64,000 nucleotides of DNA from Amoebophrya sp. A120 (Eukaryota; Protista; Dinoflagellata). The notes under the pieces were generated by a model. It was given only the letters and a program-made list of their open reading frames with translations, searched no databases and was not told the DNA's origin. Position 1 is the first letter of the stretch. Each line of letters starts with the position of its first letter. The stretch covers positions 2,297,700 through 2,361,699 of the forward strand of contig CAJINV010000006.1 of NCBI GenBank assembly GCA_905178155.1. The letters are read 5' to 3'. Position numbers and translations under genes: made by a program. Below, in pieces: positions 29,251-57,977 of this stretch.

Positions 29251-32200
29251 TCACAACAATCCATCAAACATGCCCCCGCCGCCCTGGCTCGTCTTCGGTT
29301 CCTGCTTGGCCTTTGCAGACGATCGGCGCGCGGCCTGCGAAGCTCGCTGCGACTGCTCCGGCTGCTGAGTCTCCTCAACTCCAACTCCCGGCTGCTGCAG
29401 CTGACTGCCCATGATTTGCTGGGTCACCGGCGCGTTTGACGCCCGGTTGGACTGACGGCCAAAGATTCCGGTCTTAATCGCTTCTCCACCCACCGGACCA
29501 CCTGAAGACCGTTGCGAGGTTGGTGCGCCAGCTTGTTCTTGCGTGCCCGAAACCCGCGCGATGACCTCCTGCTGTGTCGGGTCGGTGCCCAGGGGAAAGG
29601 AGCCAGATTGGCCGTACAGCGGGGACGTAGGTGTTGACCCAATGTCCGCTGGCGCCAAGAGTTGCCCGTCCGTTCCGACCTGGTATTGTTGTTCCTGTTG
29701 CAGGAGTGCCGTAGCTGCTGGGTCGGCGGTCTGCTGGTCCGGGGACGTCGGAGGTGCAACGCGGCCCATGGAGGCCAGGGCCCCGGATTTCAGTGCGTCA
29801 GTGATTTGCGCGGAGGTCAGCTGCTTCGTCAGCGACGAACCGGGCGAGGGGGCCTTCGCACCCACCGGTGACAGGCCTCCCGGCGCGCCGCCCGGCTGCC
29901 GCGGAACGGCGGTTGGGGCCGGCGTTTGCTGTCCTTTGACGAGGAGGATGACGACCAAGCAAATGACGAGAGGGATAGCGATACATCCGATCGCAATGCA
30001 GAAGTAGCAGCAGCAGGCAGCACAGCCAGTTAAGTAGCCAAGCGGCCAGCTTCCGCTGTGAGTCTCGTCCACGTAGTCCTCTTCATTGTGCTCGTGTCCG
30101 TGGGTCGACGAGTTGTTCGAAGCGATACACCGGGGGTTGTCGACCGATTCGTCTTGAGTGGAGTCGAAATCTGGGTTCTCGACAAACCCCTCCTGGCAGG
30201 TAGCTTCCCCACTCCGGTGGGTGGAACCCCCCGGGTAAATGAACTCACAGCACTCGTGCTGATGTGGCACGTTCTTCTCCGGAGAGTCTTCCAACTGGTG
30301 GTCGGCCGGCACGAATTGATTCTCCGTAGGACTCTCTATGCAAGAAAAAAACTGTGTGTAGTGAAAGTCTACGTTTATAAAATGCAATAAAGAATGTACT
30401 TAGCACAATATTTACACTAACTTATCATGCCAGACAGCCACGAGGTTTTCCCCTTACCCTTGATTTCATACATATTAAATTATGTTTTTTCATTTTCACA
30501 CGCTAGCCATGCATAGGACAGGCTTTGATTTGCCTGTCATGTAGAGCAAGTTTGTGATGCTGTCAGCTGCTCAACAAAGTTCTTACGCTGACACAGTTTT
30601 TTTCCTGGGTACTCTCGCAGGTGGCTTCATTGAAGCTGCGGCTCGCGCAGATGTCCGGCGAACAAACTTTGGCGTCCTCGGCAAGAAGTTCGCTCGGGTC
30701 GGGCTTGCCTTCATCGGTCTCACTTAAATTGGCCAGCACGTCAGCTTTTTGGTCCCCCTGCTCTCCCGGGTGGCGAATCGAAATCTTGATTGCCGGTTTC
30801 GAAGACGAGCGGTCATGATCATCATCGTGATCGCCCCATAAAAACATCCGCGACAGCGCCGCGGATTTCTCCTGGTAAAACCGCTGAAATTTGGTCGACC
30901 ACAGCTCGGCTTGCAGGAAAGAAGTAGAGGAGCTGCTCTATGACAGTGCACAACTCCCCGTCCCCCTCATTTGTCATGCAAAATTCCAAATCCAGGCTGT
31001 ATTTCTTGGCACAGTTTGCATGACAAACTTCGGAAGCCCAAAAAATAGCACAACACTCCTGTGGAAATTTGTCATGCAAAACCGGCATTCTTGCTGACGC
31101 TTGTATTTCCGTTCATGCTATACAAATGAGGGGGAGGGGGGGTTGTGCACTCTCATATGCTCGAAGATGCTCCCACGAGCGGAGCCGCCCCGGCGCTGTC
31201 CAGCTTGCCCAGCTGTTTTTCCAGGTCGTAGTCGTTCGCTGCACTAGAATATCAAACGCAAAAGTGTCTGGGTCTGGAAGAGTCATGCTGTAGTTTTTGC
31301 ATGACACAGAAGGTCTGGCATGGAAGCTCTAGCATCACAGGTTTCGCGAGGCGTTCGCAATGCCGCATCCACATGGCAAATCCCTGACTTTGGTGACAGA
31401 AAGTAGGCAACTTTTGCTGCCTACGCATGAGAGATTTTTCTGTGTTCCTTCTGAAATGCGCATCACAAGTTTATATTCTTCCAGACCCAGACATTTTTGC
31501 ACTTGATACAGAAGCTCCCGCGAGAGTGTCTTGCTCGGCCAGCTCCTTTAAGTGCTCCGCAATGGCGCGAACCGACGGGTCCCCCATCTTCAGCTTGCAC
31601 TGCCCCTGCGTCTGATTCATGGCCTGGAAGGTGCAACACGCAGACCGCTGCGTCTCCTCGGCGGTGGGCTGTTTGTTTTTAGGAAGAGAAAATGCATACT
31701 ATGCGACAGATTCTGGCGACAACATGAACTACAGGCCCTGTGTCTTTCTTCTCACACGGTCCGTCTACTTCACATTATGACGAAGATATAGAAGATGATG
31801 AAGAAGATCTCCTCTACTACGTACGTGATCAACCTTTGTAAGTTGACTTCGTCCATAAACCCTAGCTAGAAGTGCTGAAGTGGTCGTAACGTAATCATTA
31901 GTAATTGAGTAAGCAAGTACCTCCCGCCCCTCCATCACGGTGCCCTCGCACTGTTCTTTCGCGCCCTGCAAGTGCAGGCTTGCTTCCGTCAACCCTTGTC
32001 CGCAGTCCACATCAAGGCAAGCGCCACTCGGTTTTCCGGTCTCCATATCCAACACAGTTTCGCAGCGGGGCTTGGAAGTGTCATCTTCCTCGACAAATTT
32101 GTCCTCTCCATCAGACTCCTCCGGTACACCCGGCTGAAAGCAGGGCAACTGCTTCATGTCCTCGTAATGCTGCCACTCCGTCATCGGCTTGGAACTGAGC

Positions 32201-35200
32201 CAGCACTGCGATATCCAGGAAAAAAACTGTGTAAGTGTAACTTTGTAGGTGTAGGTGTAGGAAGAGCAGCATCACAAATTGATTTCGCATTACAGGGAGA
32301 ACCTGTCATGCGCAGGTAGTAAGTATGTGAAAACACGCATGAAAGTGACCTATGACGCACATCCAGCATGACAATCGTATACGCTTGTGCATTTTCTGCA
32401 TCACAGACTATTACACTCACAGAGTTCTCTCCTTGGATATGCGACATCCGCCATTCAATGGGCGAGTTCGCGCGCTTCTTGGGCGGGGAAAAGAGGAAGG
32501 ACTTGCATTTCTGCACGGTCGGCTGCTCCCCATACCCCGGGTTGTTCTCCGCCTGGCACAACCGCTCACAGACCAGGGAGTTCCATTGCAACATGTAACG
32601 GTTGTAAAATCCGTCCTCAGGCTTGGGGACAATCATGGCCTCGAAGTTCAACATTTGCATGTTATCCGCGGAACTACCTCCCGAGGACAACACTTGGCCG
32701 CTTTATGCATTGCAAATATGTCTGGGTCTGGATTTGTGATGCGAGAATTGAAGGACAGGAAGATCTGTAATGCATGAATGCGAAGATGCGCCAGTTTTTT
32801 TGTCGTGCTGGAAGAAGTTTGTCATGCGTTTTATGAATGAATCAGCAACCAGCCTTGCCAAACTTCTGATGCTATTATGCCGTATAAGCGGCTACCCTCT
32901 GAATCTGAAAATGCGAGTGTCAGCAACACAAATTTCCAAACCCAGATATATTTGCAATGCATATGCTTTGTTGTAGACGGACCGATGTCTGGCTCATCCT
33001 CATGGCCATCGCCTTCTGGTCGGCATTTATGGCGCTCTCAACTGTTACATTCTCAACTGTTACATGATTTGTCATGCAAAAACAGCAATTGGGGAAGGGG
33101 CAAGCTTGCAAGTCTTGCATCACAAATTTGGCATGGATTTAGATGCTATTTAGCCCTTCGACAATTTGTCATGCGAAGCAGCTTGATTGTCTTGCGGCTC
33201 ATGGTCATTTTGCATGACCAATCATGTAACAGCTGAGAATGTAACGTTTGAGAACGCCATAGCATTTTGGTACGTCGTGTGATCATGATCGTGGTCATGA
33301 TCGTGGTCGCCCCGACGCTGCTCCGCGAGGGCCTGATAATCCATCCGGGCGGAAGTTCTTTTTGTGCTGTCGAGCTTCTTCGCCTCGAACAGAAACGAGG
33401 ACGCCGCATCAACATCACTGCTGCTGCTTGGAAGTAGACCTTCCAGAAAGGACGACCCAGCCTGTGGCGGGGGGGTCGTGCTGTTCAAATGCGGTTCCAC
33501 TTTCTCCCAAGTCTGCGTGCCGTTGTTGTACAGCATGTCGGACCCGGCAATATGACAGTTCACAACTCCCCCTCCCCCTCATTTGTGTAGCATGAACGGC
33601 AATTATACAAGCGCCAGCCAGAATGCAGGCTGTGCATGACAAATTCAAATTTGCACTCAGGATTGTAGTGCCATTTGGGCAGCTGCCAGAACTTGTCATG
33701 CAAACAGGGCTAAGAGGCACAGCCTGGATTGGGCATTTTGCATGACAAATGAGGGGGAGGGGGAGTTGTGCACATTCATAGGCAATCTGCCGCGGACACA
33801 AGCTCAGATCCGCGCCCTGGATTTTCACGAAGGAGAATATCAAATCCAAAAATCCCTGGAGGTCTGGAACAAAGCAACTTGTCATGCTAAATTTGAATCA
33901 TGCAAAAATTTGCGTTGCATCATTACCAAAATCTGTCCACCTCTGACCTAATCGCGAGGCAGTTTCTCATGCAGGATTGGCATGATACAACTCTCACAGA
34001 ATCTGTCATGCTATGTCCTACATACCAGGCCTCATGGGTCATGGAAAACTCGCATGACAAGTCTGGCATTCTTCCAGACATCCAGGTATTTTTGCAGTTG
34101 ATAGAGAAAGTAGATCCACTAGTCGCGGACGATCGCCTCGTTCGGCCCGTCAACAAGAAAGAGGACGAATTTGTTGAATCTCCCCCGGCGGTCGTTGCAT
34201 TTGCATCCTGCAGCCCTTCGGCAACAGTATCAATGATCTCCTCTTCCTCCTCCTTGAAATACACGGGGCAGAAGGCGGAGCCGGAGTGCTGGCTCCAGTC
34301 GGCCCGCTTCACCCAGGTGTCCCGAGCCGTGGCGAGTAGTGTTAGTGCAGCCGGAGTTGTGGCGTTTATCGAATGCAAATTTATCGATCTGGGTCTGGAA
34401 GATTTTTGCTAGATTTGATGTCCTCAAGCCTGTGTGACATGTACTCAACGAGACTCCGTGAAGATGCGTATCGGCATCGACGGAAAATAAGGTCCTCTAC
34501 TTACGACCTGTGATGCAAAAACGCAGTTTATTGCCATGCGGAAAAATACGCAATAAACAGCGGCCCAAGAATTTGCCAACATGCTCGGCTGCGTATTCTT
34601 CCAGTGCGCCTACGCTTAGCACTCGCTCTTAGCATCACAACTGTCCAGACCCAGACATACTTGCACCTGATAGCGTTGCCCAGGGTTTCGCTGCCACCAG
34701 TCGCGCTGGTCGCATCCGCACCCACACCGCCAGCACCCGCACCGCCGGCACCCGCACCGCCGGCACCCACACCGCCGGCACCCGCACCGCCGGCACCCGC
34801 ACCGCCGGCACCCGCGCCGCCGGCACCCGCGCCGCCGGCACCCGCGCCGCCGGCACCTGCACCGCCGGCACCCGCACCGCCGGCACCCGCACCGCCGGCA
34901 CCCGCGCCGCCGGCACCCGCACCGCCGGCACCTGCACCGCCGGCACCCGCACCGCCGGCACCCGCACCGCCGGCACCCGCACCGCCGGCATCCGCCGCAT
35001 CCGCATCCGCGTCCTCGTGCAGCCTCTGCTCCATGTTTATCTCAATGAACGAAGCAGCACTAGCCGCTGTCTATCGTACGAAAAAAGTGTGTCACTGTAA
35101 GGATCTTGCAAGTTTTGCATCACGCGTTTGCTCTACATCACAGAGAAAATTTCCCATGCAAAGTTCCTAAGGGAAAACACAGCTAAAAATCCACTGTCTT

Positions 35201-38200
35201 GCATGTGTAGCAATACAAATCCTTCTGAGATACTATTTCTGCATTACAAGTTTACAGTGAAACACTTTTTTTCTGCGATACTGTCGGGCTGGTCTGCAGT
35301 GTCATCTCCACACCGTGCGCATTCGTTCCAGAGTCGATGGGGACGCTGCTCTGCTGCAGCTGCTATCCCGGGGAAAAATCCCCCCTCCCCATATCGAAAA
35401 GGCACGTCGCAGAAAATTTGCAATGCTGATTTGCGACCACAAATGATCTCTGTCTTGCAAGAAGGCAACTTCACAGGCTCCGCTGCACTATGCAGGCGTT
35501 TTGTGATGCTGTTTGGCCTACGGCGCAGACGTTTGCGTTTCTCATGCTAAGCGCCTAGGCCAAAACCTCTCAACTCAGGCTTGATGTGGGCCTGCAGTCC
35601 TCTTCAGCAAGACAAATCTGATTTGTGTACTCAAATCCAGCATCACAAATATTGCTTTCGATATGGGGAGGGGGGATTTCTCCTTTTGATAGCTGCACCT
35701 GGTTGTTCAGCAAATGGTGTTCCGACATGGCGTGCGTTTCGTAGTACCTCTGCTGCTATCAAATGTAAAAATGTCTGGGTCTGGAAGAATGCAACCTGTC
35801 ATGCTAAATCTGAAGCATGCGCAAATCTGTGTTGCATGATTACCAAAAGTAGTCGTCCTGTTTTCACCAAGTCGGGAGGGAGTTTCTCATGCGGAATAGG
35901 CATGAGAGAGATCGCACAGAATCTGTCATGCTAGGTCCTGCATTCCAGACCTCATGGGTCATGGAAAACCTGCATCACAAATCTTGCATTCTTCCAGACC
36001 CAGACATTTTTGCATTTGATAGCTGCCACTCCAGCCCGCCGGCTGGGCATTCGAACGTGCTGGAACCATCGTCCGTGATGCCCTCCATCTCGGGATGCAT
36101 GCGCAGCAGGTCGCGCGGCTCACCCTGGTACCCCACGTAAGCCGCGAGCGTCCCGGCGGGCGGAGCGAGCTCCTCACCTTTCGAGGTTCCCGCCACGGTT
36201 TCCGCCGTCACGTTCTTGATTCCCGTGTTTATCATCAGTTCCTCCTCGGGCGTCAGCTGCGCTACGGCTGCTTCCGCATAGAGCAGCCGGCAGAAGGACA
36301 GTCCGGGCAAATAACTGGCACCATCCACTTCCGTCCCGTTCACGCCGACACCGTTGGCGTCTCGGTACCCGACCACCTCGAACCCGTCGCAGTTGGCCGC
36401 AAATTTGTCGCACACACTCGCGCACCAATGGAGGGCCGCTGGGTAGCTGTAGAAAAACCTGCCACCGTTCGCATTGATGAACTGGTTAACCTGCGGACTG
36501 GGAGGCTCCTGGATGCCCGTGACCACGTCGGGAAGCAGCATTTTTTCGATGTTGTCAAATTCGTACAATCCGTCAGCACTCGGACTCGCGTCCGCCTGCG
36601 GCACAATGGGGAAGACAAAGGTAGACTGCGACGCGTAGCTGGTGGCGCAGGTGTATCAAATGTAAAAATGTCTGGGTCTGGAAGATTCTGAGACTTGTCA
36701 TGCATGTTTTGCCTGGGCCATGATGTCTGTGATGCACGCCCTAGCATCACAGATTTTTTGAGGGCCCCGCGATGCCTATTCCGCATGACAAATGCCCTCT
36801 CCGCGTAGCAAAAATTACACTCCCTTTGCTGCTCATGCAATACAGATTTTTTTGGAATCCAAATTTAGCATCACAAGTTCCAATCTTCCAGACCCAGACA
36901 TTTTTACACTTGATAAGGTGCTGTTTGCCACCATGGAGTAGACGTTCGCGCGGGGAAGGTCATGATATCATTTGTAAAAACGTCCCCACCCCAGAGTTGT
37001 AATGCAAATCTGCATGCTGAGAATGTTTCTCATGCGGAGACCCATGAGAGGCAGTCTCTATTCGTGTTGTGGGATTGGTGATGCTAGAATCAGCATGATG
37101 TGCTAGATCTGTGACGCTGCTGAACAAGCTAAACAGGATTACACTGCGAGGCCAAACTTGTCATGCGCGACAGCAAAAGCTGACAGATTTGTCTAGCAGA
37201 TTTCCCAGCTTGACTCTGGTCGTGGGGACACGTTTTTACTCAGGATACATGAGTCACCTCCTTCAGTTCCCCCGTCGCGCTGTCGTGAACCATGCGCGGC
37301 GGAATGGTATCAAATGCAAAAATGTCTGGGTCTGGAAGGATGCAACTTGTGATGCTGAATTTGGATTCTACAAAAATCTGTATTGCGTGAACAGCAAAAG
37401 AGGTCCAGTTTTTGCCACGGCGAGAGGGCATATCTCATGCGGTACAGGCATCAGGAAGCCCTCACAAAATCTGTGATGCTAGAGCCTGCGTCACAGACTT
37501 CAGGAGTCATGCAAAGTGTGCATGACAAACCTTGCATCCTTCCAGACCCAGACATTTTTGCAGTTGATAAATGGGGTAGCAGGACCACTTGTTCCGCTGG
37601 CGGATCAGATTGAAGTAATGGTATCCCAGCTGCGCTGTCAGCGCTTGGCACTTGTGTTTCACGTAGTCCGCTGTGTAGGCTCCCTGCATCTTCTCCTTTT
37701 GTTGCTGATAGTACGCGTAGTTCAGGTCCTCGTCCTTTGGTAAATCGTACCATTTCACGGTCAGATCGTCCGCGACGTCTTCCAAATCCTGCATCGGGGT
37801 GAGGTGCCCCTCGGCGTTTTGGTAGTACGCCGGGAACAAATTGGATCCTGCACCCGCAGCTTCTTCAGCGCCGTCATAGATCACTGCGACCGGAGGGGTG
37901 GTCAAAATGTACTGCGTCAAATTTAAATCGATAGTAGTGTCGTTCTGCAGGAGCTTTTCGACCGCGGTCAAGTAAAATTCTCTCGCGGCCAATGCCGCCG
38001 AGGTACTCAGGTCCACGCGGGGGATGATGGAGTAAGAGTCGTCGTAGAGATCGTCGGTGCATCAAATGCAAAAATGTCTGGATGTCTGGAACATAGCAGC
38101 AACTTGTCATGCTAAATCTGAATCATGTATAAAATCTGTGTTGCATGATTACCAAAAGCTGTTCACTTTTGACCTGATCGCGACGCAGTATGTCATGCAG

Positions 38201-48700: not shown

Positions 48701-49170
48701 TCGTCTTTGCTCCTGGGGCCGTAGTCCACCAACAACCGGGGCTTGTTCTCTACAACTTCTACCTGCGCAAAGGATCCTGGTCCGTCTCCTTGACCTTGTC
48801 CTTCCAGACCCGATAATTTCTGTGCCGCATGTAGTTTATGGTTTTCTTGATGTTCCCCGCCCCGCTGGTGCGTTTGTTTGTGCAGAAACGTCGACGTGCT
48901 CGATGTGTAGTGGCTTTGACTTCTTTCCCGACCCCGGTCAAATACACCAGGAGTGGCCTCTTTACGAGGATCAACAGCTTCGTCACCTTTTGTTCTGCGA
49001 GCAGGAGTCGAACCTGCTGTATTAACTAATGTCCTAACATTTTTCTTCTTGCTTATTGTTTTCAACGGCCGCTGCACTAGCGTTAGAGCCACGGGAAAAC
49101 AAGAGGAGAGGGAGTCCAAATAAAGACACCAGAAAGAAATTATGCGAAACCAAAAGCAAAGAGCATTCAT
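39771..49170 (-). CDS. Secreted G8-domain / parallel beta-helix protein (fibrocystin-L/TMEM2/CEMIP-like), ~1500 aa; 20 introners
   Basis: G8-like ITVDGYLELV..IEARRIHV..GKFVAG..IILH; NWQVGDSIVVAAT; QAEVGNLSRGIVITG; YCLHLH; GITVHGT..VDQNV..YVEDGNEKNNVLSNN. Spliced length 4503 nt. The 3' end may extend via a GT donor near 39774. Confidence 0.88.
40024..40173. mobile_element. Introner family A
   Basis: TSD cggct/cggcg. Confidence 0.9.
40862..41016. mobile_element. Introner family A
   Basis: TSD ctgcc. Confidence 0.9.
41061..41322. mobile_element. Introner family B
   Basis: TSD aaaag. Confidence 0.9.
41339..41734. mobile_element. Introner, long singleton type
   Basis: TIR atccc.gagaa.aaagctgcta; TSD ccggc/ccgac. 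Confidence 0.85.
41814..41964. mobile_element. Introner family A
   Basis: TSD cgtaa/cgtag. Confidence 0.9.
42033..42295. mobile_element. Introner family B
   Basis: TSD caaag. Confidence 0.9.
42365..42657. mobile_element. Introner family F
   Basis: TSD cgagc. Confidence 0.85.
42703..42854. mobile_element. Introner family A
   Basis: TSD acctt. Confidence 0.9.
42895..43155. mobile_element. Introner family B
   Basis: TAT..GTA; TSD gccga/cccga. Confidence 0.85.
43202..43462. mobile_element. Introner family B
   Basis: TSD tcccg. Confidence 0.9.
43558..43707. mobile_element. Introner family A
   Basis: TSD cgttt/cgttc. Confidence 0.9.
44298..44524. mobile_element. Introner family E
   Basis: TSD cccgc. 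Confidence 0.9.
44581..44846. mobile_element. Introner family B
   Basis: TSD tcgag. Confidence 0.9.
44927..45198. mobile_element. Introner family B
   Basis: TSD cgact. Confidence 0.9.
45353..45604. mobile_element. Introner family B
   Basis: TAT..GTA; TSD cattg. Confidence 0.9.
45694..45956. mobile_element. Introner family B, inverted relative to 9510
   Basis: TSD tcccc/tctcc. Confidence 0.9.
46168..46392. mobile_element. Introner family D
   Basis: TSD actgc. Confidence 0.9.
46459..46722. mobile_element. Introner family B
   Basis: TSD atccg/acccg. Confidence 0.85.
46922..47149. mobile_element. Introner family B
   Basis: TSD tgggg. Confidence 0.9.
47320..47625. mobile_element. Introner, singleton TIR type
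   Basis: TIR atcgaaattgacaaaatc; TSD tggaa/cggaa. Confidence 0.85.
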
Positions 49171-50221
49171 GATCGAGGAAACAAAGAGGAGGTAGGAGAA
49201 ATGTACTATCTGTAGAATGGATTTCTAATTCTAAGCTTAGAAGGTGAAGGTCTTGTGCCAAGAAGGATCGTGCATGACTCAGGTGGGGGTGCTGGAGTGT
49301 ACTTATTAATTTATGGTACTTCTGCTCCAACTTGTGGCTCACGACGAATTTTAAGTGCTGCAATTTTATCACACTAAACACATGCTTACGCCGGACACGG
49401 ACTCGCCGGAAGCCTAGATGACTGAAGCAGACACGCGTTGTGAAGCGTTACGGAATAGCAGCGCACCGACGAGAGGGAAAATCTTCACAACACAAGTAGA
49501 CATCAGATCAAAGGCGGTTTGTTCGATTTGTCAAGTGCAACGATTGGCGCACGATTGAAGAAAGCGTACGAGTGTTTCTTGTGACTTTCTTGTACGACGA
49601 GGATAACTAGTGTAACGGACGTTGCCAAGAGCGTGCCAACACAGGCCAGCCATAGAAATCTTCCATCAGACGAGAGCAGAGCGCTGGTACAATACGCTTA
49701 TCAAGGACGGAGGACGACAGGACGACGGCAAGGAGAAGATTTCTATTTCAAGATATGAAGAGGAACAAGCAGGAGAGCAGAGAAACAAACTAACAAGAGC
49801 CTCAGCACCGTTTTTCTCCTTCTTGGGAGATCCTCAATGCTGGCTTATTTCGGTTGCACGAATACAAATTGAAAAAACTTTGGGTACCTGCGAATATAAA
49901 GTTTCAGTACGCGTGGGAGGGCGCATAAATAGCTACTTTCTCCTTCTATCCAAGGAGCCGTGCGCGACAGTTTCTGTTCTGAATTTGCTCCTTTCACAGG
50001 CCGCAAGAGAACACCAGGGTGGCATTCATAGAAAGCTGTGAAATTGAAATGTGATGAAGATATCGTAATGGGGAGGGACAATTGAACCCGAAAGACGTAT
50101 AGGCACCACAAGATCACGAGCTCTGCCGAGGCTGCACACCATTTTTGTTCCTTTTACTGTATTGTAACCATTCTACTGCAACACATCCAACCCTAATCTT
50201 TTCGGTTTCTTCATACTATTC

Positions 50222-51520
50222 TCAAATCCGATCGTAATCCCCTGTTCTGTCCGCAAACGCCTCGCTGCCACAGCAGAAGACGTAAAAGAAAACGGCGCCG
50301 AGAAGGAAAAATACGAAGAACCCAAAAAGCGCCAGGTGGAGTAGGTGACACACACAGGAGCTATCTATATCTTCGTTTTCATCTATCATTTCCTCGCTGC
50401 GCCCTGAATTTTTGGATGATGCTGTAGTTCCACCCGTGTTCTTCGTCCCGAGGTCGGTCGTTGTTTCACTACTGCTCAAAGGGGGTGTTGCCGCGCCCTC
50501 GGGCAGTTGAAAGGCTGGATTTGCTTGCGGAGGCGGGGGCTTTTTTGTTGTACCACTGCTCTCCGGTGGCTCCGACCCCGGCGCGCCAGGGTTGTTTTCC
50601 ATGGTACCGCCAAAAATGAAGGGGTCTTGGGGCGAACCGGGCTGCTTGTTCTTGGTGGCACCGGAACGACGTCCTCGCGTTTGTTCTACAACAACTCGGT
50701 TGGTCGTAGTTCTACTTGATTCAGACTCTCCGACTTTCAACAAAATCTGCTGCTTTTCGCTCGTACTTCGACTAGCAATGGAGGACCTGCTCCGTGTAGA
50801 AAAGAACCTCGTCTTACCACTTGTTTCCGTTTGAGAAAAAGAGCTGCTGGTGCTGGTACTCTTCCTGCTTGGCTCCCCCGGGTGGTCATCGTCTTGCGGA
50901 CTACGGATACGATCCTGCCCTTGAAGATCATGGGCTCGGTTTGTCAGTGAAGCATGAGCCGTGAGGTCGTCGACCCTTGATGTCTCTACTGAATCATTTG
51001 ATTTGGATTTATGGTCATGGGATGCTCCCTGCAGGAAAAACCCGAGCACTGTTCTTGGCCGCCCACGGCGCTGCTCCTCCCGTTGCAAATTTTTGCGCCG
51101 AAGTTTCTCAAATCGAAAGTCCGCTATGAGTCGGTCCGCTGTTTGATGTTCTGGTGAAGATGTCGCGCTCGCGCCTACTGCACCTTGTATTGGTGGTGCT
51201 GGTGCCGCGTCGTGTTGCATCAACCCGATGTGTGCTTTTCTTTCTGACTGTTCAAGAATCGACGACGCAGCTCTTGCTGTCGACTTCGCTCGTTGTTCCT
51301 GAGATTGTTCTTGCTCGTCTTTCGCTCTTCGCCGCCCGCTCTGACTGGTGCTCGTGCTGGTGCTCGCCGTCCCAACACTCTTCTGCTTGAATACCGCGAC
51401 GGCACTTATGGTTGGTGTTATGACCACCCCGGAGCGGGCGCAGAAATAAAAAACTGCCGCGACCACGGTTCTTGCGGTAGAACGGCGCAGAAGTTCTTGC
51501 TTGGGTAGATAAGCCAACAT
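50222..51520 (-). CDS. Intronless 432-aa hypothetical protein with N-terminal hydrophobic segment and C-terminal TM
   Basis: Long ORF; VVAAVFYFCA near the N-terminus; LLHLALFGFFVFFLLGAVFFYVFCC near the C-terminus. Confidence 0.75.
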   Translation of the reverse strand: MLAYLPKQELLRRSTARTVVAAVFYFCARSGVVITPTISAVAVFKQKSVGTASTSTSTSQSGRRRAKDEQEQSQEQRAKSTARAASSILEQSERKAHIGLMQHDAAPAPPIQGAVGASATSSPEHQTADRLIADFRFEKLRRKNLQREEQRRGRPRTVLGFFLQGASHDHKSKSNDSVETSRVDDLTAHASLTNRAHDLQGQDRIRSPQDDDHPGEPSRKSTSTSSSFSQTETSGKTRFFSTRSRSSIASRSTSEKQQILLKVGESESSRTTTNRVVVEQTRGRRSGATKNKQPGSPQDPFIFGGTMENNPGAPGSEPPESSGTTKKPPPPQANPAFQLPEGAATPPLSSSETTTDLGTKNTGGTTASSKNSGRSEEMIDENEDIDSSCVCHLLHLALFGFFVFFLLGAVFFYVFCCGSEAFADRTGDYDRI

Positions 51521-52627
51521 CTTCCTCGGAAACCTACTTGTAGTATGAGTATGTAATATTAAGGACTACTTACTGCTGCAACAGAAATTGGCCTGGTCAT
51601 TCTTCGAAAAGATCGTGTGTTAAAGAAACTCCTAGCATATTACCTACACAGCACTTGTGTCCTACTTAATCCTGATCGTGCAGTAGGCCGTGTTAGTAAA
51701 GATGAATGACTAAAAACTGCGACGAATCATCGCCATATTCTTGCTAGCAACTGCAACATAAGGTTAAGGGAAGGACTGCTAGGGGCTCACTGTTATTCCT
51801 TTCAAGTTCTATATGTTTTCCTGTGACGCCACGACAACGAGTCGTCTTGTTCATAGCCGACTAAAATGGAACGGAACTACTATTGACGCCACGACAACGA
51901 GTCGGATTAATGTTCTTGCACTTGCATGCTGTGTACTTTTTGATTTGCACGATCGATTTCGTCAGCTGATGACGAGAGGAACCAGGGGTTGCAAACAACG
52001 AAACAGAACGACAAAACGAAAGAGCCGCACGAGCAGAGTAATATGAAGCACGACCACGACACGGTGAGGTATATAAATATTTGAGGGACGAAGAGCGGCC
52101 AGATCATACGATAAGTTCGACAAACACAAAAAGGAGCAAGCCGCGCAGGAGAAAAAGAAAAAGAACATCAGAAGCACCAGATATAGTGTCACTTCACAAA
52201 GATTCTACTCAAGAAAAATTCTCCCGGTGCACGCTCAGGTGGCATAGGATCTAGGGTGGATTTATTAATGCCTTGCTTCGTATGTTGAACCTTTACCTTC
52301 TGTCAGGGGGGAAATACTAGAATAAATGGATTTCAACTACTTTCTAGAAGGAACAGAAACTCAATCACAGTGTGGGGCGGGGAGTCGCAGTAGTAGATCA
52401 TCATCATACGCACTTGAGAACTGGGGTGGGTCTACGAGGTACAGAAATTAAAAAAAAAACAAGAACAACTACAAAGCATATTACAGCTACAGGAGGAAAA
52501 GCAAAACAAAGACAAAAAGTTGACGTTGAGCATCATATTGAAATAAACAAAAATGTGGTAGTACAGTGGGTCGAAAGAGCATCCTGCTCGCAGGTATTTT
52601 TATGCGTCCATTTTTGTTCCACTCTCC

Positions 52628-55600
52628 TCAACCTTCGCCCAAATCAGGGGTCGGCCGGCTGTTGTCCGTGCTCCTTGGCGCGGCCATCAGAGGCGGTTCT
52701 TCTGACATTGGCGCCACTTGCGAGGCCCTGGTAGCTCCCGCAGAAGTGGTCCCGCCAACCTGCGACGCCCTCGTCGTCCCAGCACCTCCACCAGCAACAC
52801 TGTGGCGCGAGGCCGCGGTCTGCGAAGCCCGTTGTTCCTCTCTTTTCGATATGGAATGTAAAAGTGTCTGGGTCTGGAAGCTTGGAACTTGTAATGCTAG
52901 CTTTCCATACCTAGAAAATCTGTATTGCACTATAACCAACAAAAGTCGCAGCCTCTTTTGTCATGTTGGGAAGCTAAGGGCTGGGCGTCCCTGTCGTTCT
53001 GTAAACCTTAAAACGGTAGCCACTTACTCGACAAACTCTAAATAGAATAAGTTTGGACAAAGTGATCACTACCGAGAGACAACAACAAAATAAAGGCTCC
53101 TGGGACGGCAGCCTCTTTTGTCATGCAAAACCGCAGTTTGTCATTCGGATTGCCTACGAGAAAGCGTTTTGGGAAGTTGTCATGCCGGATTGCATTCGGA
53201 AGTGTTTTGTTTCATCATGCACATTTTAGCACCACAAGTTTCCAGACCCAGACATTTTTGCATTTCCTATTCGAAGGGCTTTTCGACATCTCGGAACTGC
53301 GTTTGTTCATCTCCGAGGTCCGTTTTTTTGACGCCTGGCGACTGGATCGACCAGACGAGGCATTGTTTGCCCCCGCCTGATATGCATTGCAAATATGTCT
53401 GGGTCTGGAAACTTGTAATGCTAAAAGTGAATGATAGACGCACTGCAATACGCAGCTATGCATGACAAATTTTTTGGCTGCCATGTCTTACTTATTCCGC
53501 ATGGCAAACTGCGTTTTTGCATGACAGGTAAGAGGGCCTTTTCGTGCCTATGCAACACAGATTCTCGAGTCATGCCAGAAAAGCATGACAAACTTGCAGT
53601 CTTCCAGACCCAGACATTTTTGCATTTGATACTTCAGAGTGGGAAGAGTGGCTGTGGTGTGCGGATTTATTCATTTGCGAGGTGCGTTTGCTGGAGCGCG
53701 ATTTCCGGCTACTTCTTCCTCCCGAGGATTTCATAGCGTTCTTAATGGCGTCGCCGAAGGCTATCATTTGTAAAAACGTCGACGTCCCCACCCCACAGTT
53801 GTAATGCAATTCTGCATACTGAAGACGTTTCTCATGCGGAGCCCAATGAGAAGCATTTTCTAGTTGTGTTTCGGAGTTTGTCATGCTCCAATCAGCATGA
53901 TGTGCTAGGTTTGTGAAGATGCTGGTGAACTACCTAAACGAGATGACACTACGAGGCCAGACTTGTCATGCGCAACAACCAAGCCTCGTGGATTATTTGT
54001 CTAGCAGATTACCCATCTTGACTATGGGGTGGAGACGTTTTTACACAGGATAAAGGCTGCGCCGTCCTCTAGGATGTTCACCGAACTCTCCAGGCGCTGT
54101 CGCTCCATCTTCTCTTGCTTTTCCGTCAGCGTGGCCAGCTGCTTTTTCAACACGGAGACCCGCTCGTTCCGGCTCTTCCTGTATCCTGTGCAAAAGTATC
54201 CGATACTCGTAGCAATCGCAATACTGCATGACAAATCTTCAATCTTAAAGTAAATCCGCATTACAAATTTTATTCCTGATTCTGAGGATGAAATTCAAAT
54301 TTGTAATGCAGTTTAATACGAGTACACGATAGTTTTGCAATTCATATCCTGCCCTCGTGCGTGCTCCCGAAGGCCAGGGAATTCATCATGGCCGAGGTCA
54401 TCGACTTTTGCTGCTCGGACCGCAAGTCTTGCAGCTCCTTTTTCAGACCGTCAATCTCCTTCGCCAGGGCCTCCTCCCGTGGATCGATGCCCCGACTGAC
54501 CAGCAGGGCAGATTTGCTGCGGCCCGCGAGGCTCTTATCCGGCTTCCCGTCATCACCCATAACCAAATGCTCGCTCTTCCTCCGAACGACTTGCCGATCC
54601 ACCTCACAGCATATCCTGTGCAAAAGTATCGCACTCGTAGTTGTAGTCGCATTTTTGCACGACAAACCTCTTTTTCAAGGTAAATCAGCATGAGAAATTC
54701 CATTCGTCATGCTGAGCAAATTTGTAATGCGATTACTACTAGTACGATACTTTTGCAGTTCATACAGCACCAGGCGCAACAGCATTTTATCGGGATCACG
54801 ACGAAAAGGACGACCAAGATATGCATTGCAAACATGTCTGGGTCTGGAAACTTGTAATGCTGAATGATCATGATTGACTGTGCCTTTGAGTGCATTGCAG
54901 CATGACAAATGTTTCAAACGCTCTCTCATGCGCAGAACGCATTACAAACTGCGCTTTTGCAGGACGAAAGTGTGGCGCTTTGTGTGCTGCCTATGCAATA
55001 CAGATTTTTTAGGAATGCGAAACATGCAATACAGGTTCAACCTTCCAGACCCAGACATATTTGCATTTGATACAAGAGGAAGATGAGCAAAAACCCGAGC
55101 AGGGTTCCGAGGATCATCATGCAGTACCAGTTGTATCCTGAGCAAAAGCGCCCCCGCCTCATAGCTAACATGAGAAATCTGCTAAACAAATCAGCCAGCT
55201 TTGGTTGTTGCGCATGACAAGTTTCGCCTCGCAGTGTGATCCTGTTTAGCTTGTTCAGCAGCATCACAGACCTAGCCTATTGTGCTGATTTGAGCATTAC
55301 AAATTCCACACCACGGCTAGAAAATGCCTGTCATCGGGCTCCGCATGAGAAACCTTCTGAGCCTGGGGACGTTTTCACACAGGATAAGTTGCAGCTTTTT
55401 CCCTTCTCCTCCATACTTTGGTCGTAACTCCGGATTCCCGCGGGAACGGTTCTTCCATCCGGGTATTGATAGTGGTACTCCTTCGAATCGTATCGCAACA
55501 AAAAGTGTTACAGTATACACATTGTGTTGCAGGAGCCGCAAGACAGTAGACAACCTTTGCCATGCAAGAAATGGTTGCGAACTTCATTTCGTACGTGTTT

Positions 55601-57977
55601 TATTCCCTTAGGATCTCTGCATTGCAAGTTTTCTGTGCCACACAGAGAAAATTTGTGTTGCTGAAGGTCCAAAAAATGTTCAACTGTAACACTTTTTTCT
55701 TGTGATAAAACGTCCGGGGGCACAATCAAACACGGCTGGTTCGCCACATCGAGCATGTATCATTTGTAAAAACGTCCCCACTCCAGAGTCAAGTTCTTGG
55801 GGATTTTGCAACATAAACGTTGAAGTTTTGGGAACCACGCATAACAAGTTCTTGCAGGCTGTAGTGTAGTGCAGATTAGCAAGCGAAGCCGCATAGCACA
55901 TTCATCTCCTCATCCTGTTTACAGCATTACAAGTTCCGAAACACTATGGGAAATGCCTCTCATGGGGATGCGCAAGACTAACGCTCTTGTGTGCTTCCAG
56001 ATCTGCATGACAAGAACTCTGGGGTGGGGGTGTTTTTACACAGGATAGCATGGTGGTATTGTCAACGCCGTACGCGGCGATGTCAAAATTCGGGTTTTTC
56101 ACCACCCGTACGCGCGCGTAGGTCGTCGTTTCCGTCTCCCCCGTTTCGGCGTTTTTCACGGTTTCGTTTCTGAACAGAAAGGCCTCGTCGATGTGGTCGT
56201 GCGCGTAGGAAAACCCGGTCTGCTCCTTTTCCTTTTCGAAAAGAACCCCGAGGACCACCCGGTCGAGGTAAATGTCCGATTCGAGACAGTCGTAGACAAA
56301 CTCGCAGCAGGTCGGGTAGGGTTCTTGTAGGTCTTGGTTGTCGTTGTGGTACTGCTCTACCTCGCACTGGGCTTTCCGATACAGAGGTGACGGGAGCAAA
56401 ATCTTCTCCGACAACACCATGCGCGTGACGAGGGGCACTTCTGGCGTCGAAGAAGTAGATTCTTCTGCTAAATGTTCTTGTATGTCTCTACTCCCGCAGA
56501 CCGCCGGCAGGCACACATGTTGCGGCTCCCCTTGTGGCTCGATACTCTCTCCGTCTTGCCCCGCCTGCGAGGAAGCAGGGGCAGCGAGAAGCCCTTGCCC
56601 CGTCTGCGCGGCCTGCGAGGAAGCAGGGGCAGCGAGAAGAGCCTGCTTCGCCTTTGGCTTTATCTTTGATCCACCTGGTGGTGGATCTTCCCGTCCAGCG
56701 GCAAGAAAAGAAACGCCGGCTTGTTGTTCCTCTGTCGTGACGTTGTTGGTGCCATTTTGCTCTGGGTGGAGCGGGTTCGCGCTGGCCCCCCCGGCTCCGT
56801 CTCCTGTTACTGTTTCATTGTTCGTACCGCCTGCAGTTCCCGAAGGTTCTGCCACAACTCCTGTCGTTGCGTTTGTACTACCGTCTGCTTGCTGTGTTTC
56901 ATTACTACCGCCTGCATCTACTGTGTGACCACCCGCTGCACTGGCTCCGGTCCCGTCTGAAGACGTTGCCTCTACTTCTCCAGCTGCGCTCTCAGTTGCA
57001 TTTGTGGTCCCCTCCCCGCGACCACTCTCATCGCCTTCCTCAATTGCCCCGGCCTCGGCCGGGGTTCCCTGCAGGTGCGGTCCCGTGGCCGCCGGCGCAC
57101 ACCGACCATTATCGTGGACGAAGTGCGTGTAGAGCTCGACCACCTTCCGCCTGATCACCTCCTGGTCGTTTTCCTCGTCCTTCGTGCCCATAATTTGCAG
57201 TTCGACCACCGGGATTCCGTTGTGGGTCGGCCCCTTCCAACCCGTCGGCAGGAACTTTTCTTCTTGCTCATGTTCTTGAGCCGCATGATTTTGAATACTA
57301 TGCTTCTGGGTTAGGATTTTCTTGTTCTGGACGAGCTTTGTAGTCCTTGACGTGGTTGCGAAAGAGGAAGTTGGGACTTTTTCGACCGTTTTTGCGCTTC
57401 TTGTTCTTTCCTCACTCGTCCTGGAAGTTGTTGATGATGCTCTCTTCTTTTTTACCAGCACTCGCTCTTGTTTATTTCTTGCCGGCGAGAAGGTCCTCCG
57501 CGTGGAAGAAGATTTTCCATTTCCCAGCTGAACCGCGGAGGTGACCGAACAAGTACAACATATCGAAAGAAAAACCTGTTATTTCATCACTGTGAACTTG
57601 TAAATCGCATACGATAAGTACGTGTTTGTGGACTTGCTTCTCGTACACATGCAGGACAATGCATACTTTTTGGCGTGTTTATTTTCCTTGGGTGGCTGCT
57701 CACATGGCAAACAACTTCTCATTTGTGATGTGGAGCAAACTTGTGATGCAATAAAACTAGCTTGCACAATGAAAATCATCACAGTGAAACAGTTTTTTCG
57801 TGGGATACTCCAGGTGTTCAAAATTATATCAACGCCGATGATGATCCACCATGACGACGACGACGACCTTCCTGTGTAGCATAATACTCCCGGAATTAGG
57901 TTGGACATTCGTCCCCCGATCAGTTTGCAAGCACTTCTCGTCCGCCGGCCACGACTGGAGGTCGCCCGCTGGTTCAT
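52628..57977 (-). CDS. Type-I membrane protein (~919 aa) with cytoplasmic coiled coil; 10 introners
   Basis: Spliced length 2760 nt. TM rebuilt across an element: MMILGTLLGFLLIFLL|VVLFVVIPIKCCCAWCC; coiled coil EEALAKEIDGLKKELQDL. Confidence 0.75.
52850..53269. mobile_element. Introner family B carrying a nested insertion
   Basis: TAT..CTA; TSD ttcga. Confidence 0.85.
53381..53631. mobile_element. Introner family B, now GT-AG bounded
   Basis: TSD cctga/cttca. Confidence 0.85.
53762..54052. mobile_element. Introner family F
   Basis: TSD aaggc. Confidence 0.9.
54182..54346. mobile_element. Introner family A
   Basis: TSD tcctg. Confidence 0.9.
54612..54764. mobile_element. Introner family A
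   Basis: TSD cagca. Confidence 0.9.
54820..55072. mobile_element. Introner family B
   Basis: TSD caaga. Confidence 0.9.
55134..55386. mobile_element. Introner family F
   Basis: TSD agttg. Confidence 0.9.
55491..55707. mobile_element. Introner, E/G-like
   Basis: TIR tatc.caa.aaaaagtgttacag; TSD aatcg/aaacg. Confidence 0.85.
55758..56047. mobile_element. Introner family F
   Basis: TSD gcatg. Confidence 0.9.
57561..57807. mobile_element. Introner family E
   Basis: Decayed TSD caaca/ctcca; frame kept. Confidence 0.8.

What the first reader, a model, noticed from the sequence alone, without database searches (positions are those of the whole stretch)
30337..57807. Mutations place the splice sites inside the TSD and suggest introners are evolving into canonical GTAC-AG introns
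Model (sense strand): intron = last base of the upstream TSD + TAT...ATA + first 4 nt of the downstream TSD, so the donor reads N-TAT. Support seen: (i) 53381-53631 reads exactly TGAA|GTAT...ATATCAG|G. (ii) 17613 gained ..ATACTAG| at the predicted acceptor. (iii) All three elements whose sense 5' end changed TAT to TAC (ends 30611, 43155, 45604) follow a G, giving GTAC, the donor of the canonical introns here (GTACTTG twice, GTACAGT). (iv) At 31250, 42895 and 47320 only the upstream TSD copy has G at position 5. (v) Decayed TSDs at 23875 and 57561 differ only within positions 2-4 and have GT. By hand count only about 30 of 84 would have a GT donor, so most are AT, CT or TT.
Basis: partly seen in the sequence, partly recalled or inferred. 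Interest (0 to 1): 0.82.

Follow-up and report, generated by a model that had tools for sequence, protein, structure and literature searches.

The report
Fixed splice register in Amoebophrya introners

Summary
The window is Amoebophrya sp. A120 (two NCBI proteins match its exons at 100%). It holds at least 77 MITE-like elements (150-420 bp, 28% of the DNA). All have TAT...ATA ends, terminal inverted repeats and a 5-bp target-site duplication. These are the published A120 "introner elements" (Farhat 2021), so the system is known. That paper left the exact splice position open.

Register: transcript-like contigs of two samples lack exactly element + 5 nt at 19 of 19 readable joints, and a DNA run keeps the elements. 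Eleven elements with mismatched duplications fix the cut. All 10 mismatched bases at positions 1-4 come from the upstream copy and all 3 at position 5 from the downstream copy (Fisher p=0.0035). This holds in both element orientations and with GT, AT or TT donors. At 46459 a GT one base away is ignored.

Under this register 29 of 77 donors are GT, 6 of 77 acceptors are AG, and one element is GT-AG.

Evolution towards GT-AG is not shown. With 126 more elements from other contigs (n=203) there is no strand asymmetry, no AG gain, and "TAC follows G" does not replicate. The only hint is more GT among decayed duplications (23/45 vs 52/158, p=0.035, uncorrected).

The parts
364..63219 (-). Span holding 77 MITE-like introner elements (coordinates listed in the Full report section) inside minus-strand genes. 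They total 18,102 bp, 28% of the window.
   Evidence: Removing each element + 5 nt, and only +5, restores minus-strand ORFs of 2528, 1434, 1205, 1179, 929, 668 and 559 aa.
53377..53632 (-). Intron at element 53381-53631. TSD copies are TGAAG (upstream) and TCAGG (downstream). It is the only GT-AG case of the 77.
   Evidence: Contigs of X1, X2 and X4 join 53375 to 53632 (table 8). Allowed registers are k=4 or 5.
57557..57808 (-). Intron at element 57561-57807. TSD TGGAG/TGTTG; GT donor, TT acceptor.
   Evidence: X1 and X2 contigs join 57553 to 57806. Allowed k = 4-7.
42891..43156 (-). Intron at element 42895-43155. TSD TCGGG/TCGGC; the sense 5' end is TAC, so the donor reads GTAC.
   Evidence: X1 contig joint 42890/43157, with 4 letters fitting either side. 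Allowed k = 0-4.
45690..45957 (-). Intron at element 45694-45956. TSD GGAGA/GGGGA; AT donor.
   Evidence: X1 joint 45688/45957, with 2 letters fitting either side. Allowed k = 3-5.
46455..46723 (-). Intron at element 46459-46722. TSD CGGGT/CGGAT; TT donor. A GT one base upstream (k=3) is not used.
   Evidence: Protein P0002 has V (k>=4), not I (k<=3), at this junction.
31246..31509 (-). Intron at element 31250-31508. TSD TTCTG/TTCTA; GT donor.
   Evidence: Protein P0001 has S (k<=4), not G (k=5).
32700..32964 (-). Intron at element 32704-32963. TSD AAGCA/AAGCG; AT donor.
   Evidence: Protein P0001 has G (k<=4), not S (k=5).
38056..38331 (-). Intron at element 38060-38330. TSD TACCG/CACCG; the sense 3' end is ATG instead of ATA, and it is still removed.
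   Evidence: X1 contig pieces 37570-38054 and 38331-39169 abut (table 8). Allowed k = 1-5.
30333..30612 (-). Intron at element 30337-30611 (sense 5' end TAC after G; perfect TSD GAGAG).
   Evidence: P0001 matches the conceptual splice across it.
45349..45605 (-). Intron at element 45353-45604 (sense 5' end TAC after G; perfect TSD CAATG).
   Evidence: X1 joint 45347/45605.
17609..17866 (-). Predicted intron at element 17613-17865. TSD GGAGA/CTAGA; AT donor, AG acceptor.
   Evidence: No transcript was read here.
47316..47626 (-). Intron at element 47320-47625. TSD TTCCG/TTCCA; GT donor.
   Evidence: An X1 contig ends exactly at 47627 (table 8), a weak hint for k<=4. The protein test is silent because the change is synonymous.
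41335..41735 (-). Intron at the diverged element 41339-41734. TSD GTCGG/GCCGG; GT donor, CG acceptor. It looks like GT...AG if read one base off.
   Evidence: P0002 spans it.
31669..31920 (-). The only verified ordinary intron: GTACTTG...AAACAG, 252 nt, no TIR or TSD.
   Evidence: P0001 junction MEGRE|PTAEE; GGTACTTG at 31914-31921.
23875..24149 (-). Family-3-like element with element 23612-23871 nested at its edge. Its putative TSD copies share 2 of 5 bases.
   Evidence: No transcript was read here.

Best explanation
These are the published introner elements (non-autonomous TIR transposons with a 5-bp target duplication) of Amoebophrya sp. A120, and transcripts lack each element plus five bases at one fixed register: the cut falls one base before the element's TAT and four bases after its ATA, whatever dinucleotides lie there. 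The position is likely measured from the conserved element ends and the terminal hairpin, and is predicted to be read by a spliceosome with a relaxed first intron base and no AG requirement.

Shown:
- the elements, their TIRs and TSDs;
- exact loss of element + 5 nt from transcript-like contigs, while DNA contigs keep the elements;
- register k=4 from mismatched duplications;
- removal in both element orientations;
- near-random donor first base (GT 38%) and acceptor (AG 8%).

Inferred:
- that the TIR stem forms in the pre-mRNA and holds the two cut sites together;
- that the invariant T-A-T at intron positions +2 to +4 stands in for the canonical GTA(C/T) donor;
- which enzyme cuts. My odds are about 50% a relaxed, U1-less spliceosome, about 35% a structure-guided cut-and-ligate pathway, and 15% something else.
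For: Identity:
- P0001 and P0002, 'unnamed protein product [Amoebophrya sp. A120]', are 100% identical to window exons.
- The elements fit the A120 description in Farhat 2021 (IR starting with TAT, then 7 variable nt, then at least 3 A; 5-bp direct repeats). I read sections 10 and 11 and the supplement legends.

Removal:
- 14 of the 15 joints shown skip exactly element + 5 nt. Four more come from table 8 and one from table 8. That is 19 of 19.
- Depth differs about tenfold between neighbouring genes (21 to 243) and is 0 in four element bins in X1 and X2.
- The DNA-like run X5 covers all 30 bins, and its contigs run across exon-element borders (records 13, 15, 19).
- Only '+5' restores long ORFs.

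Register:
- k>=4 from 53381, 57561 and 46459. k<=4 from 42895, 31250 and 32704. k>=3 from 45694. k>=1 from four more.
- 10 of 10 mismatched bases at positions 1-4 come from the upstream copy and 3 of 3 at position 5 from the downstream copy (Fisher p=0.0035).
- The informative elements include both orientations and three families, and GT, AT and TT donors.
- P0002 equals the k=4 conceptual splice over 1174 + 326 residues across 20 elements.

Hairpin: element 53381 with 15 nt of flank folds at -100.6 kcal/mol, z=-5.4, with the TIRs paired.

For a spliceosome:
- Of six possible registers, the one used puts T at +2 and A at +3, as in the verified canonical donor GTACTTG.
- Farhat 2021 reports nearly all spliceosomal proteins, no U1 snRNA, and the same IR/DR layout in 15% of A120 canonical introns.
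Against: - k<=4 rests on three elements, and two of those come from public gene models, not from reads I saw.
- A mixture of registers (say k=5 at some elements and k=3 at others) cannot be excluded element by element.
- Contigs drop rare isoforms, so imprecise minor products would not show.
- X1-X4 are labelled only 'RNA?' by the tool.
- Against a spliceosome: AG at 6 of 77 acceptors; removal in either orientation, so no fixed branch point or pyrimidine tract; no association between intron +1 and -1 beyond the antisense mirror.
- Positions 4-8 of the two arms are often not complementary (for example 53381), so a helix directly next to the cut sites is not required.
Confidence: 0.72

Rival explanations
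1. After insertion, introners are being converted by mutation and selection into canonical GTAC...AG introns: G gained at the last base of the upstream TSD copy, TAT changed to TAC, and AG gained at positions 3-4 of the downstream copy.
For: - In the window, 3 of 3 TAC ends follow G (p=0.045).
- U5 is the only G at 31250, 42895 and 47320. AG is present only in the downstream copy at 53381 and 62455.
- In 203 elements, GT donors are commoner where the TSD has decayed (23/45 vs 52/158, p=0.035). The effect remains after dropping position-5 mismatches (18/34 vs 52/158, p=0.032), and the antisense mirror is flat (13/45 vs 50/158, p=0.86).
Against: - No overall strand asymmetry: G at U5 75 against mirror C at D1 63, of 203 (p=0.35).
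- AG 17/203 against mirror CT 14/203.
- Position-5 mismatches: upstream-only G 5, downstream-only G 3, neither 3.
- Position-3/4 mismatches: downstream-only AG 3, upstream-only AG 3.
- 45694 has AG only in the exonic copy and 32704 has G only in the exonic copy.
- The one TAC end among 126 further elements follows C.
- Divergence from the family consensus is the same for GT and non-GT copies (p=0.24, 0.81, 0.57).
- The p=0.035 is uncorrected for about eight tests. Because it survives removal of position-5 mismatches, it points to survival of insertions that already had G, not to gain of G.
Confidence: 0.2
2. Non-spliceosomal excision. A structure-guided endonuclease plus an RNA ligase recognises the TIR hairpin and cuts at fixed offsets, in the manner of animal SOS splicing or the unknown machinery of Euglena nonconventional introns.
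For: - Cut sites are indifferent to dinucleotides.
- Removal occurs in both orientations.
- No +1/-1 covariation.
- A strong terminal stem.
- SOS splicing is triggered by ITR pairing and rarely uses GU-AG (passages of PMC12779559).
- The Euglena code has fixed spacers on either side of a pairing motif (abstract of PMC12501133).
Against: - SOS splicing cuts at several sites and leaves indels, whereas here 19 of 19 joints are exact.
- The register used is the one that mimics a GT-type donor at +2 and +3.
- Elements that happen to have G...AG are indistinguishable from canonical introns.
- No factor (AKAP17A, CAAP1, RTCB) could be looked for, because no genome is held.
Confidence: 0.3
3. Flexible register. 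The machinery slides within the duplication and picks whichever position gives the best GT/AG-like pair, so there is no single rule.
For: With a perfect TSD (56 of 77) all six registers give the same mRNA, so most junctions cannot speak against it.
Against: - At 46459, k=3 would give a GT donor, but the gene model shows k>=4, a TT donor.
- 32704 and 45694 are cut with AT donors.
- 57561 is cut with a TT acceptor.
- One register fits all 11 informative junctions.
Confidence: 0.05
4. Removal at the DNA level (programmed elimination, as for ciliate IESs), with the 'RNA?' runs in fact being DNA of a processed nucleus.
For: The tool only guesses that X1-X4 are RNA. Excision of element + one TSD copy is also what precise DNA excision would leave.
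Against: - X1 depth varies from 21 to 243 between adjacent genes, and the runs hold only about half of the words.
- X5 at an even depth of about 38-45 keeps the elements.
- Farhat 2021 validated the introns with RNA-seq (section 10).
Confidence: 0.03

Closest known systems
Introner elements / non-canonical introns of Amoebophrya sp. A120 (Farhat et al. 2021, PMC7789003; sections 10-11, passages and supplement legends read)
   Same: Same organism and same elements. The IRs begin with TAT, then 7 variable nt, then A-run. There are 5-bp direct repeats and many families. The elements are removed from RNA at non-GT-AG sites, and the genes lie in one-directional clusters.
   Different: Nothing differs in kind. 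The paper states that the intron border position 'remains unknown' and places the IRs 1-5 nt from the splice sites (legends of Fig. 3 and Fig. S23). The single register (1 nt / 4 nt) derived here from mismatched duplications was not found in the four full-text searches made.
Nonconventional introns of Euglena (Nomura et al. 2025, PMC12501133, abstract and outline read; review PMC11282704, passages)
   Same: Non-GT-AG introns, thought to derive from MITEs. Their ends are defined by a pairing motif with fixed spacers to the exon borders (5'-N3CDG...CH'GN5-6|R). TSD-like repeats sit at the borders.
   Different: Other motif (TAT/ATA, not CAG/CTG) and other spacers (1 and 4, not 3 and 5-6). No purine preference at the first exon base was tested here. 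Unrelated lineage. Circular products are known for Euglena and untested here.
SOS splicing of DNA transposons from animal mRNAs (Nature 2025, PMC12779559; passages read)
   Same: A DNA transposon inside an exon is removed at the RNA level. The trigger is pairing of the inverted terminal repeats. The sites are rarely GU-AG.
   Different: SOS splicing uses several sites in or near the ITRs and leaves indels, so only some products are in frame. Here every joint read is exact (element + 5 nt). The factors AKAP17A, CAAP1 and RTCB could not be tested.
MITE-derived non-canonical introns of Fritillaria borealis (Henriet 2019; seen only through passages of the review PMC11282704)
   Same: Mass gain of introns from MITEs together with tolerance of non-GT-AG borders.
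   Different: Fritillaria has preferred dinucleotides (AG-AC, AG-AT). Here the first intron base and the last four are essentially free.
Introners that take splice sites from the TSD (Gozashti 2022, PMC9860276; passages read)
   Same: A TIR/TSD transposon whose intron borders lie in the duplicated target, with no change in mRNA length.
   Different: Those families use GY-AG sites, so the insertion must supply them. Here only 1 of 77 is GT-AG.

Membership tests
Amoebophrya A120 introner elements (Farhat 2021) | The host is Amoebophrya sp. A120. | tested here: met
   Exons 32442-32696 and 46728-46916 match NCBI A120 proteins P0001 and P0002 at 100%.
Amoebophrya A120 introner elements (Farhat 2021) | Inverted repeats that start with TAT, followed by about 7 variable nt and at least 3 A. 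| tested here: met
   End listings. 73 of the 77 sense 5' ends are TAT (variants: TAC x3, TAG x1).
Amoebophrya A120 introner elements (Farhat 2021) | Direct repeats of 3-5 nt across the exon/intron borders. | tested here: met
   5-bp TSD, perfect in 56 of 77; 24 mismatched of 385 positions.
Amoebophrya A120 introner elements (Farhat 2021) | Removed from transcripts at non-canonical sites. | tested here: met
   19 of 19 joints equal element + 5 nt. GT-AG in 1 of 77 under the register found.
Non-autonomous TIR DNA transposon (MITE) | TIRs, a TSD of fixed length, many copies, no coding capacity. | tested here: met
   155 further loci carry the family-0 TIR core in other contigs. No transposase was sought.
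Canonical U2-type GT-AG intron | GT (or GC) at the 5' end and AG at the 3' end. | tested here: not met
   GT 29 of 77, AG 6 of 77, both in 1 of 77. At 46459 an available GT is skipped.
Canonical U2-type GT-AG intron | Branch point, lariat, spliceosome dependence. | not testable with these tools
   Raw RNA runs X8-X10 gave 2, 2 and 1 reads on the stretch. No genome is held.
Euglena nonconventional introns | Signature 5'-N3CDG...CH'GN5-6|R. | tested here: not met
   The layout here is N1-TAT...ATA-N4. It works alike but is not a member.
SOS splicing substrates | Pairing of the ITRs is required. | tested here: inconclusive
   TIRs are present and predicted to pair. The requirement itself was not tested.
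SOS splicing substrates | Several imprecise cut sites that leave indels. | tested here: not met
   Every joint is exact in contigs of X1, X2 and X4. Contigs can hide rare isoforms.
Programmed DNA elimination (IES-like) | The joined form exists as DNA. | tested here: inconclusive
   X5 contigs keep the elements at unique depth. The joint table for X5 was swamped by repeat joints, so absence of the joined form was not shown directly.

The most novel reading that the evidence does not exclude
Amoebophrya A120 uses a sequence-blind 'ruler' splicing code, N1-TAT...ATA-N4. Any insertion of these transposons, in either orientation and at any 5-mer, is cut out exactly at positions measured from the element ends. 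The code would be convergent with the Euglena N3/N5-6 code. It is possibly run by a U1-less spliceosome that no longer needs G at +1 or AG at the 3' end, or by a non-spliceosomal cut-and-ligate system. The code would hold genome-wide for the tens of thousands of A120 introners.
Probability: 0.45. Interest if true: 0.7.

Novelty: already known. Interest (0 to 1): 0.5.

Why it matters
The elements and their non-canonical removal are published, so the system is not new. What the check adds is the exact splice position, which the genome paper left open.

A fixed 1/4 register that ignores GT and AG, and works in both orientations, turns a vague 'variable splice sites' picture into a testable rule.
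- It predicts every junction, which helps gene models for Amoebophrya and other marine alveolates.
- It says which TSD bases are exonic (1-4 upstream, 5 downstream). That is the precondition for any test of selection on splice signals.
- It narrows the mechanism: cut sites measured from the element ends, with T-A at +2 and +3.

It also bears on how a transposon burst can be tolerated, and so on how introns spread.

Tried and rejected
- Whole genome: none is held. Rfam found nothing in the window.
- A pure-Python TIR scan timed out and was rewritten with numpy.
- The relaxed TIR/TSD scan gave 201 candidates against 130 and 131 in shuffles. It was too noisy on its own. I hand-picked 74 elements, using TAT/ATA ends, length and TSD. 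Three more came from an indel-tolerant scan, in which 11 of the 74 scored under 10.
- Raw RNA runs X8-X10, under the same species label, laid 2, 2 and 1 reads on 20 kb. No RNA holder is on record as RNA.
- In one search only 15 of 51 joints were shown. In one search the joint table was filled by repeat joints of the DNA run X5 (15 shown, 71 not). The junctions there were read from table 8 instead.
- The joints at 31250, 32704, 46459 and 47320 were never seen as contigs. Three of them were read from gene models instead.
- The search with exon 29254-30330 found no protein.
- Age proxies: divergence from the family consensus showed nothing. Most of that divergence predates insertion, since TSD positions mismatch at only 6%.
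- +1/-1 covariation: none.
- Strand assignment in the extra loci succeeded for 132 of 262 elements (126 unique). The other 130 were dropped before the counts.
- Pfam on element-free ORFs at 12-15 kb and elsewhere found nothing apart from myosin.
- Considered and rejected: ciliate-type DNA elimination, and a flexible GT-seeking register (see rival explanations).

Full report
WHAT IS THERE

The window is eukaryotic. Myosin-head pieces lie in order on the minus strand. A self-search with the element at 53381-53631 found dozens of related copies. Fuzzy matching of its 30-nt terminal inverted repeat, with the flanks printed, showed 5-bp direct repeats at nearly every copy.

The repeat finder and a de novo scan for TIR + 5-bp TSD then showed several unrelated families that share the same ends, TAT(C/G)...(C/G)ATA. 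I hand-picked 74 elements. The relaxed scan is noisy: 201 candidates against 130 and 131 in shuffles. An indel-tolerant scan added three more. In that scan shuffled sequence never scored above 8, and 63 of the 74 scored 10 or more.

The 77 elements are: 364-515, 1158-1307, 1359-1620, 2050-2200, 5351-5499, 6528-6779, 8396-8659, 9510-9775, 10610-10761, 10982-11196, 11239-11388, 11703-11913, 16855-17126, 17613-17865, 18187-18339, 19378-19528, 19608-19757, 19873-20148, 23310-23552, 23612-23871, 24494-24667, 25391-25625, 25725-25874, 26409-26638, 26698-26976, 30337-30611, 30939-31157, 31250-31508, 32212-32439, 32704-32963, 33028-33261, 33551-33780, 33838-34103, 34367-34672, 35072-35280, 35364-35691, 35757-36021, 36654-36915, 36966-37247, 37308-37569, 38060-38330, 40024-40173, 40862-41016, 41061-41322, 41339-41734, 41814-41964, 42033-42295, 42365-42657, 42703-42854, 42895-43155, 43202-43462, 43558-43707, 44298-44524, 44581-44846, 44927-45198, 45353-45604, 45694-45956, 46168-46392, 46459-46722, 46922-47149, 47320-47625, 52850-53269, 53381-53631, 53762-54052, 54182-54346, 54612-54764, 54820-55072, 55134-55386, 55491-55707, 55758-56047, 57561-57807, 59083-59345, 59389-59614, 60575-60877, 62455-62663, 62735-62985, 63063-63219.

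They make up 28% of the window, and 56 of the 77 have a perfect TSD. A 78th element, 23875-24149, has 23612-23871 nested at its edge.

THEY INTERRUPT GENES AND ARE REMOVED WITH EXACTLY FIVE EXTRA BASES

- Deleting each element plus 5 nt gives minus-strand ORFs of 2528, 1434, 1205, 1179, 929, 668 and 559 aa.
- Deleting +0, +3, +4, +6 or +7, or nothing, leaves no ORF above 756 aa.
- Deleting +8, which keeps the same frame, gives shorter ORFs.

RNA EVIDENCE

The look-up of sequencing runs gave contig sets X1-X4 ('RNA?', about half of the words), X5-X7 (about three quarters of the words in X5 and X6) and raw RNA runs X8-X10.

On 30300-50299, 14 of the 15 joints shown in X1 skip exactly one element + 5 nt. 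Twelve of these lie at a single depth, 231.7. The fifteenth is a repeat chimera. A further 36 joints were not shown.

On 53300-57900 the joint table was swamped by repeat joints of X5. Table 8, however, shows one X1 contig (3440 nt) and one X2 contig (3063 nt) running exon to exon, with junctions 53375|53632, 53756|54053, 54176|54347 and 57553|57806. An X4 contig from another sample shares the first of these.

X1 and X2 have zero depth in four element bins. Their depth differs about tenfold between neighbouring genes. X5 covers all 30 bins at about 38-45 in unique sequence, and its contigs cross exon-element borders (records 13, 15, 19). I therefore read X1-X4 as transcripts and X5 as DNA. This agrees with the RNA-seq validation reported by Farhat 2021 (section 10). 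The raw runs X8-X10 gave 2, 2 and 1 reads and say nothing.

ORGANISM AND PRIOR KNOWLEDGE

Two exons hit NCBI 'unnamed protein product [Amoebophrya sp. A120]' at 100% identity: P0001 (842 aa) and P0002 (1500 aa).

Farhat et al. 2021 (PMC7789003) report the following for A120:
- more than 60% non-canonical introns;
- introner elements whose IRs start with TAT, then seven less conserved nt, then at least three A;
- direct repeats of 3-5 nt (5 bp in their Fig. S19);
- the same IR/DR layout in 15% of canonical introns;
- no detectable U1 snRNA;

Gozashti 2025 (PMC12130899, passages) notes tens of introners per gene in A120. So the system is known.

Four full-text searches found no paper that fixes the register. 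Subscription papers, for example Roy 2023 in Curr Biol, are not in the library.

THE REGISTER

Let k be the number of upstream-TSD bases (sense strand) kept in the mRNA. With a perfect TSD all k give the same mRNA. For every observed joint I computed the set of k that gives the same joined sequence.

| Element | Source | Allowed k |
|---|---|---|
| 40024, 41814, 43558, 38060 | contigs | k>=1 |
| 45694 | contigs | 3-5 |
| 53381 | contigs | 4-5 |
| 57561 | contigs | 4-7 |
| 42895 | contigs | 0-4 |

Conceptual proteins under different k differ at a few residues.
- P0001 has S, not G, at the 31250 junction and G, not S, at the 32704 junction. Both mean k<=4.
- P0002 has V, not I, at the 46459 junction, which means k>=4.
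- P0001 equals the k=4 splice over 293 + 549 residues. P0002 equals it over 1174 + 326 residues across 20 elements.

Only k=4 fits all 11 informative junctions. Taken base by base, 10 of 10 mismatches at positions 1-4 come from the upstream copy and 3 of 3 at position 5 from the downstream copy (Fisher p=0.0035). An X1 contig that ends exactly at 47627 is a further weak hint at 47320.

The informative elements include both orientations and three families, and GT, AT and TT donors. At 46459 a GT one base upstream is not used.

Caveats: k<=4 rests on three elements, two of them through gene models. Contigs hide rare isoforms.

WHAT THE REGISTER IMPLIES

- The intron is N|TAT(C/G)...(C/G)ATA-NNNN|.
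- Donor first two bases: GT 29, TT 19, AT 16, CT 13 of 77.
- Acceptor AG: 6 of 77. GT-AG: 1 of 77, at 53381.
- Elements of one family sit in both orientations relative to transcription (17:8, 5:12, 5:2), and both orientations are removed.
- The terminal repeats are predicted to pair (z=-5.4). Positions 4-8 of the arms are often not complementary.
- The only ordinary intron I could verify is 31669-31920, GTACTTG...CAG.
- The apparent GT...AG intron at 41.3-41.7 kb is a diverged element.

THE EVOLUTIONARY CLAIM

Within the window:
- G at sense position 5 occurs 27 times and its antisense mirror 25 times, among the 74 elements then listed (chi-square p=0.53).
- GT and non-GT copies do not differ in divergence (p=0.24, 0.81, 0.57).
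- GT is 10 of 19 among decayed TSDs against 17 of 55 among perfect ones (p=0.10).

To gain power I scanned the metagenome collection for the 17-nt TIR core. That gave 155 loci, 257 kb, none overlapping the window, and mostly from one assembly.
- The same detector called 262 elements there, and 0 in 108 kb of shuffled loci.
- ORF restoration assigned a strand to 132 of them, 126 unique. The rest were dropped.

Combined, n=203:

| Measure | Result |
|---|---|
| G at U5 vs mirror C at D1 | 75 vs 63 (p=0.35) |
| AG at D3-4 vs mirror CT | 17 vs 14 |
| Position-5 mismatches | upstream-only G 5, downstream-only G 3, neither 3 |
| Position-3/4 mismatches | downstream-only AG 3, upstream-only AG 3 |
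| GT donors, decayed vs perfect TSD | 23/45 vs 52/158 (p=0.035) |
| Same, without position-5 mismatches | 18/34 vs 52/158 (p=0.032) |
| Mirror control, decayed vs perfect TSD | 13/45 vs 50/158 (p=0.86) |

- The one TAC end in the new set follows C.
- Intron +1 and -1 show no association beyond the mirror.
- The GT result is one nominal hit among about eight tests. If it is real, it indicates longer survival of insertions that already had G, not mutation towards G.

MECHANISM

Shown: exact RNA-level removal at a fixed, dinucleotide-blind, orientation-blind register.

Inferred: the cut sites are measured from the conserved element ends held together by the TIR stem.

I lean, at about 50%, to a relaxed U1-less spliceosome. 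The register used is the one of six that puts T and A at +2 and +3, as in the canonical GTA(C/T). Elements with G...AG grade into canonical introns.

A structure-guided cut-and-ligate pathway gets about 35%. The Euglena code N3CDG...CH'GN5-6|R (abstract) and SOS splicing (passages) show that such systems exist. SOS splicing, however, is imprecise, and this removal is exact.

VERDICT

- The 'evolving into canonical introns' half is not shown.
- The system itself is already known.

Noticed in passing
window, element interiors (e.g. 53440-53600): An 8-mer, GCATGACA / TGTCATGC, and close variants (GCATTACA, GCATCACA) recur inside elements of different families. There are 106 copies in 13 kb of element cores against 9 in 45 kb outside, about 38-fold. 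In sense orientation the counts are 80 against 46. It resembles the terminal ATGCATTGCAAA and may be a subterminal transposase-binding repeat or a splicing signal.
   Followed up: partly
window 23612-24149: Element 23612-23871 (TSD AAGTA) is inserted at the very edge of a family-3-like element, 23875-24149. So elements also land in or beside one another.
   Followed up: partly
window 3255-12537 (-): A myosin gene. Its head domain is split over at least four ORFs by introners. With the elements + 5 nt removed it reads through as 2528 aa.
   Followed up: partly
window 39774-49170 (-): P0002, a 1500-aa protein with G8 and CEMIP beta-helix domains, is interrupted by 20 introners and by no other intron.
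   Followed up: yes
window 29254-33540 (-): The public gene model P0001 joins the C-terminal 293 residues of a 1205-aa open frame (31768-38850) to the next ORF through the one canonical intron. The upstream 860 residues of that frame are not in the model. They include a long (GAGGAGAGG)n-type low-complexity run.
   Followed up: no
window 35359-36026: Two elements of different families (35364-35691 and 35757-36021), 65 nt apart, are both flanked by the same 5-mer, GCTGC. This may be a target hot spot in a GCAGC-rich stretch, or coincidence.
   Followed up: no
window 11914-16854: A GC-rich stretch (57% against about 48% elsewhere) holds none of the 77 listed elements. It has overlapping ORFs on both strands and no Pfam hit.
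   Followed up: partly
None overlaps the window. A few hits lie in other environmental contigs.
   Followed up: partly
runs X8-X10 on window 30300-50299: Three raw RNA-seq runs filed under the same species label put almost no reads (2, 2, 1) on 20 kb of expressed genes. They may come from a different strain.
   Followed up: no
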